NCBI RefSeq assembly: GCF_032062105.1
Contig: NW_026932050.1
Span: 186,001-250,000, forward strand
DNA: 64,000 bases
Source of the DNA: Saccostrea cucullata
Lineage: Eukaryota
Reading direction: 5' to 3'
The position numbers are program-made. Shown here piece by piece: positions 6,001 through 27,000 of the stretch (position 1 is its first letter; the number at the start of each line of letters is the position of its first letter).

Positions 6001-9000
6001 CCAAATTGGCTGTGTAGCAGCAGAAAATGATCATTATGAATGATCAGAAAGTTGTAGGGGAAATGCAAGATGTTACAATGATGATTATTACTATCTATAT
6101 TAATAAGGTGATTTGACTAAGTTGGCATCTTTTATATCTCAAATAATACTTTATTAAAGACTTTTAGTAAAAATTGCATCAGCGGATTGATCGAACGAAG
6201 ATTTGGCAGGAGAAAAAATCTTCGCGGCTGCAATTTAAACATGTTGAATGGGTTGGTTTTGTTACAGGAAAATATGTTTTCAAGGTCTTATGAAGTTTAG
6301 TTTTAAAATATTAAACATCATTATGAAATATTCCCAACTTGTCCCAGGTCGTCATTTGGGCGAGCCAGACTGAAAATCAGGTCGTCCGAAGTCATTTTAG
6401 GGTGGAAATGGCGAGGTGACGAGCGCGAATGTCGAACCCTGGAATGAACAAGTTTTGATGATTTTTACCATTACCATAAACTAAAACTGTAAAAGAAATA
6501 TGGTTATGCCTGTGGTTAATTGCCAATGGAATTAAAATTTTTAAAAAAATACCTTAGACTTTAACTCTAAGGAAAGGAGTGAGAATTAGGCTTGGAGATG
6601 GGATAATGGAAAGGTTTTAACCTTAACAATGCCAATGCTTTCTTTCAAGTGTAAGATTGCAAAATTTTGTATCACAGAAATTATCTGCTATTCATTGAAG
6701 CAAAACTGCAATGATTATGCAACATGTATTTGGAATTGTGGCTAGTTATGCATGATAAAAACATCAATGTATATATATCAATTCTGCTTTTAGAAACCTT
6801 TTAAAAACATCACACAATTTTAGAATTAAAAAAAAGCCTAGTTGAGCTTTCAGTTCAGGTAAGGTAGAAAGAAATCCGAATTAAGATAGCAAATGGTATC
6901 AAAATGGAAAGACATTATTTTAAAAAAGTAGAATATATGGCTTTGTTACCATATTTATCTATGGCTATCAGTACTACTACACTCTTTTACTTTATTTGCA
7001 TGAACACAAGAAAATAAGTCCTTGATGAAAGTTTTTTTTAGATTTTATGATTGCCCAGATTCTTACAAAATGCATCTAGGAAAGGATAAATTATTTAATC
7101 ACTTGTTTGACAGATTTAACATTCCAGTTAGAGGCTGGAGTAAATATCCTCATCACGGGGGATTCGGGGTGTGGCAAGAGTTCTCTTCTGAGGGTCATAG
7201 CAGGACTCTGGCCCTCACAGAAAGGTAAGCGTAACGAAGGGCAGTCATAGAAAGGAGTAATGGTCAACAGAGATCATCTGCCAACACTGTCCATATGTAT
7301 CAAGAACACTGAATTTTCGCAACACCTTATGGGTTCGTAAGGTAGTCATTTTAAAAATCTTGAACAAGATAAAATTTTCTTGAATTGTAGTTTTGTTCAA
7401 TAAAATTAAATGGCATACTAACATATGTGAGAATGAAATTTTTCTTGAGAACACTGACTTGTGTAATCAGGCGAAAATAAAGTACTGGCAAATAAAAAGT
7501 AATTCACAATACATGTATTAAGAACACATGACACACTAGTGTTTCTTTTTATTTTCTTTTTTACCTTAAATTATTTTATCTTATTTTTTTCCTTCAGGAA
7601 GTGTGAAATTTCATGAAACTTTAAATCCCAGTCAGATTTTATTTCTACCTCAAAAACCGTATTTCACAGATGGTACTCTCAAACAGCAGGTGAGGCATTA
7701 AATTGTCTTAATAAACTTTGATTGTTTTTTTTTTCTTTAATGTAGACTTAAGGAGATTTTAGATTTCTAACTGTTTACAAATAATTTTTTTTAAATAAAT
7801 AAATATTGAAATGTGCATTATGAATGCTTACAGGTTATTTATCCATTGAAAGAAACAGACTATGGATCAGGTTAGAGCTATTAATGATAACATTTTACAG
7901 CAGAAAAATATATTAATGAAGGGTGTGCACAGAATAAACAGAATCCTTGTAGTTACTTGGTTATAAATCTATGATTATGATATTCATGGTAATTTCCTAG
8001 TAGATAAATCAACTTGATTTTTTATGATAATATTTGTAATTTATGTTTCAGTTTCTCTAGATGATGAGTCAATCAACCAGTACATGGAGATTACAGGACT
8101 ACAGAAACTCACAGAAAGAAAACTTGGACTAGAAAGCTACTCATCACATGATTGGTGGGTTATACTATGTAGACAATCAATGATTGTTGGGCTTAGTATG
8201 TAGACCTTCAATTATTAGTGGGTAATAGTATGTAGACCTTCAATGATTAATGTGTTATAGTATGTAGACCTTCTAATGATTGGTTGGTTAGATGATGTAA
8301 ATCATCAATGATTGGTTGGTTTATAGCATATAGCATGTAGACCTTCAATGATTGGTTGGTTATAGTATGTAGTCTTCAATGATTGGTGAATTTAAAGGAT
8401 TGGTTAGTGAAAGGAATTGATTTTTGTTTCAACTTCCTTTACTAGCTAAAGTTCCATAATAATGTGTTGATGTAGACTATTAAATGTCCATTTGTTTGCG
8501 TGGATAAACATTTTAATTAATGAAATGATCTTTTTTGACAATCATATCGGTACATATCTTTATACGAGTGTTTATTTTCTGTAATAATCTAGGTATCAGG
8601 AACTATCCCCTGGAGAGATGCAGAGATTGTCCTTTGTCAGACTCTTCTTCCATCAACCTAAGTTTGCAGGTCAGTGTATTTTAAATCTTAGCTCACCTGA
8701 ACTTAGTGTCCAATTATATGCCCTTTGCACAAAGTTTATCCTCTCCATTGTTAAGTTTATTGCCTCTTACACTTTTATAGCATTCTACTCTTTTAACTAA
8801 ATCTAGAACAAGGCATTCTCTAGAATATTCTATTTAAGGAAATAAAATCTATGTATATAAACTATATGTTCTGTACTTTAGTATTTTTAGTAACAGGTCA
8901 GGTTCTAACTAAACTCTTCTTTTATGTATAGTTCTGGATGAGGCTGGTTCTAAGTAAACTCTTGTTTTATTTATAGTTCTGGATGAGCTGGTTCTAACTT

Positions 9001-24000: not shown

Positions 24001-27000
24001 TATTTGTTTGACAGATTTACACATCAAAGAAGCAAAGTTGTTGAAAATGTCAAGATTAATCTAATTGAGTCGTCAAAATACGTCCAACGTCGTCGCTTCC
24101 TGCCAAACCGGAAGTAGTCGGAAAACGCGTATTTTTGCCGTTTTTGACAAGTTTTTGGGCAACACATGTGTCTGGGAGCTTAATAATCAATTTTTCGTGC
24201 GTCGTCGTCATTTCCAGTCAAACTGGAAGTAGCAAAAAATGGCTTGTTTTTGCATTAATTAACATAGTTTTAGAGGATTCAAAGCATTTTTGGGCGTTAT
24301 TTCTCATTTGTGTTAAAATTGAAAGCTACTTCCGGTCAAACAGGACGGAAGACCTACTCGTTGCTTTGCAAAGCTTTGCTCTAGTTATGTTAATCTCTTA
24401 GTAGATTAATCAACTTGATTTTGGATATAATTGTATAATATTACTATTTGTAATTTGGTTGTGAAAGTTTATGGTTTCAGTTTCACTAGATGATGAGTCA
24501 TTTAACCAGTACATGGAGATAACAGGGTTACAGAAGCTCACAGAAAGAAAACTGGGTCTAGAGAGCTACTCATCTCATGATTGGTGGGTTATACACTAAA
24601 TTTCAGGAGCTGGGCATCACTCTGATGTGTATAGGTCACAGAGACACACTTAGACAGTATCATCAGTTAGAGCTCCGCCTACAGGGGCGGGGCAACTGGA
24701 CAATGCAGCCAATCACAGACAATGTTATATCTGTATGACAGTATTACAATTATAGATAATCAATAAGGTTATTTCAATAATGGGTTATTTAAAATAAATC
24801 ATAAATGATTTGCAAATACAGTATGAGGAAAATGTAAAACTACTTTGATAATTTTATAACATTTTTGTTGTTAATGGGTTGATATATTCAAATGCATTGG
24901 GCATTTTATTTATTTTTGTATGACTGGGTTACAAATACTAGATGCATACAGTTGTACTCATGGTTAAGAGTATACTCAATTAATGGTCTCATTCCCCTTC
25001 CATTTCATGGGCTTTAATAATTATGATTGTATAAAATTTTAACCTATGGAGTAGTTTTAATATTTTATTTTATCTGAAGTCGTAATAGAGTTCATTTGAA
25101 ATCCATAGCAAACAATGTGTGTCAGAAACATCACTTGAACACTACTAATAGTAAATTGGTTCATGAGTGCAAAGTTGTGTATTTTAAAAGCCTTGGTTTA
25201 AATGAGGACTGAATTGAAATAACTATAATCAGGTAACTATTTTCCATATTATATTTATATGGATATATTACATATGTATTTTTTTAATGTCTTTTCTAAT
25301 AATCACAAATTTGCATTTGAAATGTAATGTCTGTTTTTGCTTTATTTTGACTTAATAAGACAATTAGCAGCACTTATTAATTTGTCATAAAAATGTAATG
25401 GGAAATAATGATAGTGATTAAAAGTACTGGTTTTAATAAAAAAAAAAATATACTATTTGTTAGTTTTTGTTACTTTGGATGAATTAAGCTTTGAATGTGG
25501 CCATAAATGTTTAGTAGAAATTTATCACACGACACTTTAAAGTGAATTTTTGGACATACATGTATGCAACGTACCTTTAATACCTATTGATAGTTTTTTA
25601 AGATATACCTAAATTAACATTATATTGGCATCAGATGTTCTTAGACAAAAAATCAGCATGCATTACCAGGGGTTTTTGAAAGACAGATCAGTTGATTAAA
25701 ATTCTTGGATGATTTAAAGAAAATATATAACAAATACCAAACATATTCTAGATGAACAACACCATATATAGGCATTAAAATATAAAACACAGTTCCTTCA
25801 AGGATTAGAACTCTTTAACTCCATGGAAAAAGACAAAAAAGTTCAAATTATGTTGTATGTCTTTATTACACACAACGACAATCCAAGAAATACACATAAT
25901 TTTTTTTTACCAATTACTGGGTCATTCAGTAGATCACTCAGGTGACTTATTATTGCTTTATTCCTTCTGTTGTCCATCAGCAGCAGTCGTAAATTTCTAA
26001 ATATTTTCAGCTTCTTCTCATAGACTGCTGAACCGATTGCACCCAGTTTAGGTATATAAATGTGGCATCTATGGAAAAGGGGAACATTTATTTTGAATTT
26101 TATGATACTTGTCCATCTGATTCCTGAGGGTGGAACTAATAGCATCAAAATTAATGTCATATTCTCCTGCATGTCAATACATACAAAATTGTGAATTTCA
26201 TGGCCCGAGGAACAGGTGTTTTGGTGCTAAAGTGAGGCTCTTTTTACCATTTTGTTAAAATTTCATACTTTAAATAGTATTCCTCCCCTGTATATTAAGC
26301 AGACAAACTAAGTGGATAAGAGAAGCATGATGTGATGGGATGAGAGAACACCAAGTTATTAGTTAAGAAAAACATGAAATGATTGGATGAGAGAAGCATG
26401 ATGTGATTAGTTAAGAAAAACACAAAATGATCAGATGAGAGAAGCATTATGTGATTGGATGAGAGAAGCATGATATACTGTAGATCACTAAATTTTCGCG
26501 ACACCTTATTTTCGCGAGATAGTCATTGACTCTTTATTAGCGAGACGAATTTTTTTTTTTGCGAATTGTGGTTAATACTCTATCTTATCTTGAGGAATAC
26601 TATTATACGCGAGAATTAAATTTTCGCGAGCACACTGCCTCACCTAATTACGCGAAAATAAAGTTCTCGCGAATAAAAAGTGATTTACAGTAGAGTGAAT
26701 AGAAAAGAGAAACATGGAATGATTGGATGAGAGAAGCATGATGTGATTCGATGAGAGAGCATCGAGTGATTAGTTAAGAAAAACATGAAATGATTGGCTG
26801 AGAGAAGCATAAAGGGTTGAATGCGAGAAGCATGATGTGATTAGATAAGAGATGAAGGATGTGATTGGATGAGAGAAGCTTGGTATAATTGGATGAGAGA
26901 AGCATGATATGGTTGGATGAAAGAAGCATGTCCTGATTGGATTAGAGAAGCATGATTTGATTGGATGTAGGAATTAATGCATGATGTGATTGGATGAGAG

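What the first reader, a model, noticed from the sequence alone, without database searches (positions are those of the whole stretch)
8149..24019. Recurrent tandem amplification centred on exon/intron boundaries at one locus
Seen: four independent tandem repeats with different units (32, 45, 82 and 65 bp) each straddle a splice site of ABCD4 or its duplicate: donor 8154, acceptor 9507, donor 22315 and acceptor 23689. The 82- and 65-bp arrays are single-copy at the matching sites of the intact gene, so they arose after the segmental duplication. Weaker analogues occur in ZNF318. Inference: splice junctions are a small fraction of this DNA, so four hits suggest a mutational process targeted to them, such as pausing or R-loops at splice sites, or repair slippage at AT/GC transitions. 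This could be an undescribed route to new splice sites or introns.
Basis: inference. Interest (0 to 1): 0.72.

Follow-up and report, generated by a model that had tools for sequence, protein, structure and literature searches.

The report
Oyster ABCD4 splice-junction tandem repeats
Four short pieces of an oyster transporter gene and of its broken duplicate, each containing an exon-intron border, have been copied head to tail; this pattern is already known from lancelets and a few human genes, so it is a new example and not a new mechanism.

Summary
The window is Saccostrea cucullata DNA. It holds the 3' part of ABCD4-like (copy A, 7 exons, 5222-9704) and a decayed partial duplicate (copy B, 13337-24738). 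The core observation holds. The 32-bp x7.3 array contains donor 8154, and the 45-bp x14 array contains acceptor 9507. A 65-bp x5.5 array contains relic acceptor 23689, and an 82-bp duplication contains relic donor 22315. The 82-bp repeat has only two diverged copies, and Tandem Repeats Finder does not call it. Copy A is single-copy at both copy-B sites. The ZNF318 "analogues" reduce to one 12-bp low-complexity repeat in a polypyrimidine tract.

Under uniform placement the excess at junctions is nominally significant (P about 3e-4 to 6e-3), but the locus was picked after the fact and no genome-wide test was possible.

The phenomenon is already described. Amphioxus "mirages" are minisatellite duplications of exon-intron boundaries. 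Human F7, CBS, LMNB2 and other genes have boundary-spanning minisatellites. Intron gain from tandem arrays has also been proposed in print.

Best reading: these are ordinary tandem duplications enlarged by slippage or unequal exchange. They are tolerated because the copy joined to the rest of the exon is still the one spliced. A junction-targeted mutational process is neither shown nor excluded.

The parts
5222..9704 (+). ABCD4-like copy A: the last 7 exons (residues 373-604 of P0001). Exons are 5222-5298, 7114-7224, 7598-7689, 7834-7870, 8051-8154, 8593-8669 and 9508-9704 (the last includes the stop).
   Evidence: The last exon is 100% identical to the NCBI protein named lysosomal cobalamin transporter ABCD4-like isoform X2 of Saccostrea cucullata. 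In tblastn all internal residues are identical and mismatches occur only at junction codons. Flanks were read. The Walker A exon hits Pfam ABC_tran and ABCD chains in the PDB.
8148..8388 (+). 32-bp minisatellite, 7.3 copies. Unit 1 is the last 7 or more nt of the exon plus the first 25 nt of the intron, and holds the working donor 8154|8155.
   Evidence: TRF, (74% matches). Sequence. Adjacent units are 67-85% identical. 5 of 7 downstream units keep GT at the donor-equivalent position, and 1 of 7 keeps the full intronic hexamer (read).
8901..9520 (+). 45-bp (alternating 44/45) minisatellite, 14 units. Each unit is the last ~31 nt of the intron plus the first 13 nt of the final exon. The working acceptor 9507|9508 is in the last unit.
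   Evidence: TRF, (periods 45, 89 and 222; 89-91% matches). Units in register: 13 of 13 upstream units keep AG. Mean pairwise identity is 0.895, and the two units at the 3' edge are the most divergent from their neighbours. An 11-nt stretch of the left flank recurs just before the last unit. Reading from a decoy AG meets a stop codon after 7 codons.
13337..24738 (+). ABCD4-like copy B, a decayed partial duplicate. Relic exons for residues 285-311 (13337-13414), 342-379 twice (13712-13825 and 15204-15305), 373-399 (22239-22315), 400-413 repeated (23690 onwards), and 479-515 (ending at 24583, the relic donor) fused out of frame to residues 556-604 (24589-24735).
   Evidence: tblastn. Self-blastn: A 1748-10472 matches B 16416-25476, and B lacks A 7155-7985 and A 8166-9553. 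Fusion junction read. No protein of 87 aa or more in the database matches B better than P0001 does, at 94%.
22278..22441 (+). 82-bp tandem duplication (2 copies). Each copy is 38 nt of exon end plus 44 nt of intron. The relic donor is at 22315|22316 and its duplicate at 22397|22398.
   Evidence: Alignment with copy A. blastn 22276-22351 against 22358-22431, 82.9%. Not called by TRF. Identities: copy 1 to copy 2 0.77, A to copy 1 0.83, A to copy 2 0.78.
23666..24024 (+). 65-bp minisatellite, 5.5 copies. Each unit is 24 nt of intron end plus 41 nt of exon start. The relic acceptor is at 23689|23690. The last, partial unit breaks 5 nt after its AG, where sequence unrelated to copy A begins.
   Evidence: TRF, (91% matches). 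Alignment with copy A. Mean unit identity 0.92. All 6 units keep AG.
24583..24600 (+). Deletion junction in copy B. The sequence runs 11-12 nt past the relic donor, that is, into what is unit 1 of the 32-bp array in copy A. It then continues with the middle of the last exon (A 9554-9557 onwards).
   Evidence: The two joined sites in copy A share an imperfect similarity of about 10 nt (read).

Best explanation
These are boundary-spanning minisatellites of the kind called 'mirages' in amphioxus.

Origin (inferred). At four different ABCD4 junctions, a short segment of 32 to 82 bp that happened to include an exon-intron border was duplicated in tandem. Two junctions are in the working copy and two in its decayed paralog. 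Three of the four duplications then grew by replication slippage or unequal exchange, as ordinary minisatellites do.

Why the gene tolerates them (inferred). One terminal copy stays joined to the rest of the exon. That is the first donor of the 32-bp array and the last acceptor of the 45-bp array. Splicing there yields exactly the annotated protein, so the other copies are intronic decoys.

Copy B (inferred). The arrays lie in relic exons with no coding role, and both large deletions begin next to or inside an array, as expected if arrays destabilise their surroundings.

What is shown: the anatomy, the independent origins, the conserved coding origin of the exon parts, and the internal pattern of array growth.

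The clustering at junctions. I take it as a nominally significant local excess, found after the fact, that needs a genome-wide test. It is not evidence for a new process.
For: - Anatomy: units hold exon plus intron sequence and the splice signal.
- The exon parts are old coding sequence. The residues flanking the junctions are conserved in Saccostrea, Ostrea and Crassostrea, and those flanking two of the three junction positions also in Tegillarca, whose protein lacks the third region.
- Minisatellite dynamics in the 45-bp array: alternating 44/45-bp units with 89-bp and 222-bp higher-order periods. The array interior is homogeneous at about 0.9, and the 3'-edge units are divergent. The same pattern is reported for amphioxus mirages (PMC3087553, section 16).
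- P0001 matches use of the first donor and the last acceptor.
- Use of a decoy acceptor would end the reading frame after 7 codons.
- Human F7 has the same layout. Its 37-bp units hold 4 bp of exon and 33 bp of intron, and only the most upstream donor is used. Its donor has the same intronic hexamer, GTGGGT (compared).
- No fixed geometry: the exon share of the units is 7, 13, 38 and 41 nt.
- 0 of 13 ZNF318-like exon ends carry a comparable repeat.
Against: - The excess over uniform placement is about ten-fold: 4 observed against 0.35-0.46 expected among 16 arrays in the window.
- Inside copy A there is no purely intronic array with period 20 or more and score 50 or more. Both arrays present straddle junctions.
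- Further breakpoints lie close to junctions. One copy-B deletion starts 11 nt after a donor. The 65-bp array is cut 5 nt after an AG. The twice-present relic exon loses similarity within 3 nt of its donor.
- Several amphioxus genes also carry more than one mirage, which hints at a real bias.
- All 13 decoy acceptors are intact, so their harmlessness is assumed, not shown.
- No RNA data were available.
Confidence: 0.6

Rival explanations
1. A mutational process aimed at splice junctions. Polymerase pausing, R-loops or breaks at junctions during transcription and splicing would seed short tandem duplications there.
For: There is a local excess of junction-containing repeats. The four units are unrelated and sit at two donors and two acceptors. 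Other rearrangement endpoints lie within 3-11 nt of junctions. In amphioxus, mirages recur within single genes and 'the genomic mechanism ... is unclear' (PMC3087553; PMC3902484).
Against: The junction has no fixed place within the units (7, 13, 38 and 41 nt of exon). 0 of 13 ZNF318-like exon ends and no other gene in the window show it. Two sites are in a decayed copy with no evidence of transcription. The deletions are probably secondary to the arrays and so are not independent events. The locus was chosen after the fact.
Confidence: 0.2
2. Template switching at breaks in homology. The exons are conserved islands between the two paralogs (and between very divergent haplotypes). Repair synthesis that starts in an exon and runs into diverged intron would abort or switch there. 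It would leave duplications and deletions near exon borders.
For: Between A and B the exons are 342 of 364 identical (94%), against 1344 of 1584 (85%) for introns and flanks. The locus is a segmental duplication with many rearrangements. In human segmental duplications, variable internal tandem repeats occur at exon-intron boundaries of paralogs (27 intron modifications after manual checking; PMC2812944). From my own knowledge, not from a call: both oysters and amphioxus are very heterozygous.
Against: No direct trace of A-B exchange was found. Unit ends lie tens of nucleotides from the junction, not at it. This is an idea of mine with no test here.
Confidence: 0.1
3. Pure coincidence made visible by selection of the window. 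Oyster introns are rich in minisatellites, and among many windows one with four hits is expected.
For: The window-level P is 3e-4 to 6e-3, which is not small against thousands of windows and many kinds of coincidence. 12 of the 16 arrays in the window do not touch a mapped junction.
Against: Both arrays of period 20 or more in copy A, and 4 of 7 local repeats in A plus B, are hits. The amphioxus literature reports the same clustering.
Confidence: 0.07
4. Assembly artefact: the arrays were created or inflated by mis-assembly.
For: None found here. The window has one N run, at 29257-29392 and outside the locus.
Against: Units differ from one another by scattered substitutions (identity 0.65-0.92). 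They show ordered higher-order structure and unique flanks.
Confidence: 0.03

Closest known systems
[quoted passage not shown]
   Same: The repeats are head to tail and their unit spans an exon-intron boundary. Both 5' and 3' boundaries are affected. Units run from tens of bp to about 160 bp. A gene can hold more than one. Splice signals are kept in most copies. The array interior is homogenised while the edge units differ (PMC3087553, section 16 read whole; PMC3902484, one passage).
   Different: The phylum differs (a bivalve mollusc). Two of the four repeats sit in a decayed paralog. Normal splicing and length polymorphism, shown for amphioxus Adh3 and the globins, could not be tested here. 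The founding paper (Canestro 2002, PMC117041) is not held, so I know it only through those two papers.
Human F7 intron 7 VNTR and similar cases (6-16, CBS, LMNB2, PDGF)
   Same: The first monomer spans the exon-intron boundary, so the donor is repeated downstream, and the most upstream site is the one used. F7 has a 37-bp unit with 4 bp of exon and an intronic hexamer GTGGGT. The oyster 32-bp array has 7 bp of exon and the same hexamer (PMC1557585, abstract and introduction passages).
   Different: The listed human cases are donor-side arrays, whereas two of the four here are acceptor-side. Use of the splice sites is not measured here.
Variable internal tandem repeats at exon-intron boundaries of paralogs in human segmental duplications
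   Same: Minisatellite-sized units differ in copy number between recent paralogs and sit at exon-intron boundaries (PMC2812944, passages).
   Different: That study reports new introns and alternative transcripts. Here no new intron or transcript is shown. Its supplementary tables could not be seen.
[quoted passage not shown]
   Same: A tandem duplication yields duplicate splice signals that could define a new intron (PMC2891723, passages; PMC3087553).
   Different: That model starts from a duplication inside an exon. Here the duplicated piece already contains an existing junction, and the protein is unchanged. Zhuo 2007 (PMC1783408) is not held.

Membership tests
Boundary-spanning minisatellite ('mirage' type) | Head-to-tail repeats of one unit | tested here: met
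   TRF, for three arrays. For the 82-bp repeat, two copies only.
Boundary-spanning minisatellite ('mirage' type) | The unit contains both exon and intron sequence, with the splice signal | tested here: met
   Units are. The exon parts are conserved coding sequence.
Boundary-spanning minisatellite ('mirage' type) | One terminal unit is the authentic junction, continuous with the rest of the exon | tested here: met
   Met for 8154 and 9507 in copy A. In copy B the junctions are relics.
Boundary-spanning minisatellite ('mirage' type) | Regular splicing is not disturbed by the extra copies | not testable with these tools
   The only evidence is that the NCBI protein model P0001 fits the outermost sites. 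No RNA data were available.
Boundary-spanning minisatellite ('mirage' type) | Copy number varies between haplotypes or individuals | not testable with these tools
   There is one assembly window only, and no bivalve genome collection was available.
Intron gain by tandem duplication of an exonic proto-splice site | The duplication lies inside an exon, and a new intron is defined between the copies | tested here: not met
   The arrays lie in existing introns next to existing junctions. The protein has no insertion relative to its orthologs.
Transposon-borne satellite array | The unit derives from a mobile element found elsewhere | tested here: not met
   The units contain ABCD4 coding sequence. 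Self-blastn shows no other copies in the window.
ABC transporter subfamily D, member 4 (identity of the host gene) | An ABC nucleotide-binding domain with Walker A and a best match to named ABCD4 proteins | tested here: met
   Tested exon by exon: 100% to the S. cucullata ABCD4-like protein; Pfam ABC_tran, 33.2 bits against a cutoff of 25; PDB ABCD chains. The transmembrane half lies outside the window.

The most novel reading that the evidence does not exclude
Boundary-spanning tandem duplications are not random. Some process tied to exon-intron junctions seeds them at a raised rate in hyper-polymorphic marine invertebrates such as oysters and amphioxus. It could be breaks coupled to transcription and splicing, or template switching where homology between diverged haplotypes or paralogs ends at the exon edge. 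'Mirages' would then be a steady, lineage-wide source of decoy splice sites, intron sliding and new introns.
Probability: 0.22. Interest if true: 0.75.

Novelty: new member of a known kind. Interest (0 to 1): 0.4.

Why it matters
If the clustering is more than chance, oysters would be a second, distant lineage after amphioxus in which exon-intron borders are repeatedly duplicated. A genome-wide count could then settle whether junctions are mutational hot spots, a question the amphioxus papers left open. The 45-bp array also places 13 intact decoy acceptors upstream of the real one in an essential-looking final exon. That makes it a natural test of how 3' splice sites are chosen, as the F7 array was for donors. 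If the clustering is chance, the locus is still a clean, datable example of how a duplicated gene decays around minisatellites.

Tried and rejected
- Hairpin-driven slippage. Single-strand DNA folds of the four units on both strands gave z-scores of -2.0, -1.2, -0.9, -0.5, +0.3, +0.7, +1.7 and +2.1, so only 1 of 8 reaches -2.
- Units bounded by the branch point, as a reverse-transcript of a lariat intermediate would be. The flank similarity of the 45-bp array runs 11 nt further upstream than the branch-like motif, so I dropped this.
- A link between the 24-bp minisatellite at 26313-28359 and copy B. The shared piece, 7303-7511 against 26482-26692, looks like a dispersed element and not an ABCD4 exon.
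- The 95-bp local repeat at 13823-13977. It starts 13 nt after relic donor 13809 but does not include it and looks element-derived, so I counted it as a miss.
- ZNF318 analogues. Only a low-complexity 12-bp x1.9 repeat was found.
- A protein model for copy B. No hit better than P0001 at 94% turned up among proteins of 87-2000 aa. This is weak evidence.
- Canestro 2002 and Zhuo 2007 are not held.
- Prior description in molluscs. Searches found mirage papers on amphioxus only, so 'not described in bivalves' rests on those three searches of that library.
- Dating the 82-bp duplication. The two copies are no closer to each other (0.77) than copy 1 is to copy A (0.83). 'Arose after the segmental duplication' is therefore the parsimonious reading, not a proven one.
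No bivalve genome, read set or transcriptome was available. The closed collections and the supplementary files of the papers were not consulted.
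Full report
WHAT THE WINDOW IS. The last ABCD4-type exon (9510-9701) is 100% identical to the NCBI protein named lysosomal cobalamin transporter ABCD4-like isoform X2 of Saccostrea cucullata (P0001, 604 aa). It is 98% identical to the S. echinata protein. The window is therefore oyster DNA, not human. All protein searches were made exon by exon. I built and searched no joined, spliced model, so that step is left out. The N run at 29257-29392 was left alone.

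GENE MAP. tblastn of P0001 against the window, together with the flanks, gives copy A. It has seven exons covering residues 373-604: 5222-5298, 7114-7224, 7598-7689, 7834-7870, 8051-8154, 8593-8669 and 9508-9704. Every internal residue is identical to P0001, and mismatches fall only on junction codons. The exons for residues 1-372 are not in the window.

Self-blastn shows a same-strand segmental duplication, A 1748-10472 against B 16416-25476, at 68-88% identity. Copy B also has relic exons further upstream: 13337-13414, and one exon present twice at 13712-13825 and 15204-15305.

Copy B is decayed in several ways:
- It lacks A 7155-7985, which holds the Walker A part of one exon and two whole exons.
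- It lacks A 8166-9553.
- The relic of residues 479-515 is fused out of frame to residues 556-604.
- A 2.15-kb insertion with inverted ends splits its upstream intron.

No database protein of 87 aa or more fits copy B better than P0001 does, at 94%. Between A and B the exons are 342 of 364 identical (94%), and the introns and flanks 1344 of 1584 (85%).

THE OBSERVATION. TRF reports:
- 32 bp x7.3 at 8148-8388, 74% matches
- 45 bp x14 at 8901-9520, 89-91% matches, with further periods of 89 and 222
- 65 bp x5.5 at 23666-24024, 91% matches

The 82-bp repeat is a single duplication, 22278-22359 and 22360-22441. The copies are 77% identical with gaps and 83% in the blastn alignment. blastn and alignment show it, but TRF does not call it even at score 30.

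Each unit mixes exon and intron:
- 32-bp unit: at least 7 nt of exon plus 25 nt of intron
- 45-bp unit: about 31 nt of intron plus 13 nt of exon
- 82-bp unit: 38 nt of exon plus 44 nt of intron
- 65-bp unit: 24 nt of intron plus 41 nt of exon

The exon parts encode residues conserved across Saccostrea, Ostrea and Crassostrea, and at two of the three junction positions also in Tegillarca. The repeats were therefore copied from the gene, and not the reverse.

Copy A is single-copy at both copy-B sites. Copy B cannot date the two copy-A arrays, because it lacks that stretch. Its deletion begins 11-12 nt past the donor, inside what is unit 1 of the 32-bp array in copy A.

The ZNF318-like gene lies on the minus strand, with exons at about 53799-53614, 51814-49004, 48798-48613, 48363-48145, 47952-47821, 47671-45422 and 42555-42484. 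Its TRF arrays lie inside exons or deep in introns. Of 13 exon ends, one falls in a TRF locus, a 12-bp x1.9 repeat in a polypyrimidine tract. I do not count that as an analogue.

IS IT MORE THAN CHANCE? Two uniform detectors were applied to the whole window. TRF at score 30 or more gives 74 loci. Four contain a mapped junction: the three arrays plus the trivial ZNF318 one. Self-blastn for direct repeats with an offset of 400 or less gives 12 clusters, and four straddle an ABCD4 junction.

For the Monte Carlo test each array was collapsed to one unit. That unit was then placed uniformly, and a placement counted as a hit if at least 4 nt lay on each side of a junction. The results:
- four of four: 2e-5
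- at least 4 of 7 local repeats inside the two ABCD4 spans (14,725 nt, 22 junctions): 4e-4
- copy A alone, 2 of 2: 0.010
- window-wide, at least 4 of 16 arrays, with 37 mapped or 49 assumed junctions: 3e-4 to 7e-4
- TRF-called arrays only, 3 of 15: 0.006

Expected hits were 0.35-0.46 against 4 observed. These figures are nominal.

WHAT THE ARRAYS LOOK LIKE INSIDE.
- 45-bp array. Units of 44 and 45 bp alternate. The interior is homogeneous, with each unit about 0.9 identical to the others. The two units at the 3' edge are the most divergent from their neighbours, with adjacent identities of 0.76 and 0.77. An 11-nt piece of the left flank recurs just before the last, authentic unit. More than one duplication step was therefore involved.
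- Decoy acceptors. All 13 upstream units keep AG, and 10 of 13 keep the same branch-like pentamer. Reading from a decoy meets a stop after 7 codons.
- 32-bp array. It is old, with adjacent units 0.67-0.85 identical. 5 of 7 decoys keep GT.
- 65-bp array. Mean identity is 0.92, and all six units keep AG.
- DNA folding. Single-strand folds show no hairpin signal in 7 of 8 tests.

HOW IT MOST LIKELY WORKS. Shown: four independent tandem duplications, each of a segment containing a junction; minisatellite-type growth in three of them; and a protein model that fits the first donor and the last acceptor.

Inferred: the arrays are tolerated because the copy that stays joined to the full exon is the one spliced. 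The first-donor rule was demonstrated for the human F7 array. That array has the same layout and even the same intronic hexamer, GTGGGT (PMC1557585). The choice of the last acceptor probably depends on the full exon behind it. This rests on my own knowledge of exon definition and comes from no call.

The copy-B deletions start at or in arrays, so I treat them as consequences of array instability and not as further independent hits.

WHAT IS KNOWN. It is not.
[quoted passage not shown] They report earlier cases in Adh3 and other loci and homogenised array interiors, and they give an explicit model of intron gain. They state that the mechanism is unclear (PMC3087553, section 16 read whole).
- Pavelitz et al. 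report 60-bp and 108-bp repeats overlapping both splice sites of lancelet PGBD5 (PMC3902484, one passage).
- Borensztajn et al. list human genes whose minisatellite starts across an exon-intron boundary.
- De Grassi and Ciccarelli found variable internal tandem repeats at exon-intron boundaries of paralogs in human segmental duplications (PMC2812944, passages).
- Lehmann et al. review intron gain by tandem duplication (PMC2891723, passages).

Canestro 2002 and Zhuo 2007 are not held, so I know them only by citation. Three searches found no description of this in molluscs. Supplementary files, which hold the amphioxus alignments and the human case tables, could not be seen.

VERDICT.
The 82-bp 'array' is a two-copy duplication. 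The copy-B sites are relics. The ZNF318 analogues are trivial.
- It is a new, clean, multi-site example of a known kind, apparently the first noted in a bivalve within the library I could search.
- Whether junctions attract such duplications remains open. The local excess and the amphioxus parallels keep that reading alive at roughly one in five.
- Weighing against it are the lack of fixed geometry, the silence of the neighbouring genes and the after-the-fact choice of locus.

Noticed in passing
1939-3693 (-), and 16416-20497 in copy B: An uninterrupted 584-aa ORF with B-box zinc finger and NHL/beta-propeller matches (TRIM-NHL-like) lies on the opposite strand, inside the ABCD4 intron of copy A. 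Its counterpart in copy B is split by a 2.15-kb insertion. The ends of that insertion carry an inverted 18-bp x2 repeat (17992-18027 and 20077-20112).
   Followed up: partly
26313-28359: A 24-bp (48/72) minisatellite of about 2 kb with strong G over C skew lies downstream of copy B. It is interrupted at 26482-26692 by a dispersed element, and a 69%-identical copy of that element sits in a copy-A intron at 7303-7511.
   Followed up: partly
13654-13812 and 15130-15304: The relic exon for residues 342-379 of copy B is present twice, 1.5 kb apart. Similarity between the two copies ends within 3 nt of the relic donor. This may simply reflect better conservation of exon than of intron.
   Followed up: partly
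43512-44880: A 166-bp satellite (6.3 copies, 90% matches) sits in the last intron of the ZNF318-like gene, about 450-700 nt from the nearest exon end. An (ACGACA)n run lies at 44898-44963.
   Followed up: no
60979-62288 and 62397-63818: A 1.4-kb direct repeat, nearly in tandem, at 71% identity. Its content was not examined.
   Followed up: no
38048-39871 (+) and 31669-32566 (+): A 607-aa open frame with ankyrin repeats and a SOCS box, and two open frames with mitochondrial carrier domains. These are the other genes in the window. They hold no TRF-called repeat.
   Followed up: partly
24025-24386: A 362-nt filler in copy B with no match in copy A replaces A 7155-7985, directly after the truncated last unit of the 65-bp array. 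It has an internal imperfect direct repeat.
   Followed up: no
11414-11524: A 50-bp x2.2 repeat whose unit is itself palindromic, in the spacer between the two ABCD4 copies.
   Followed up: no
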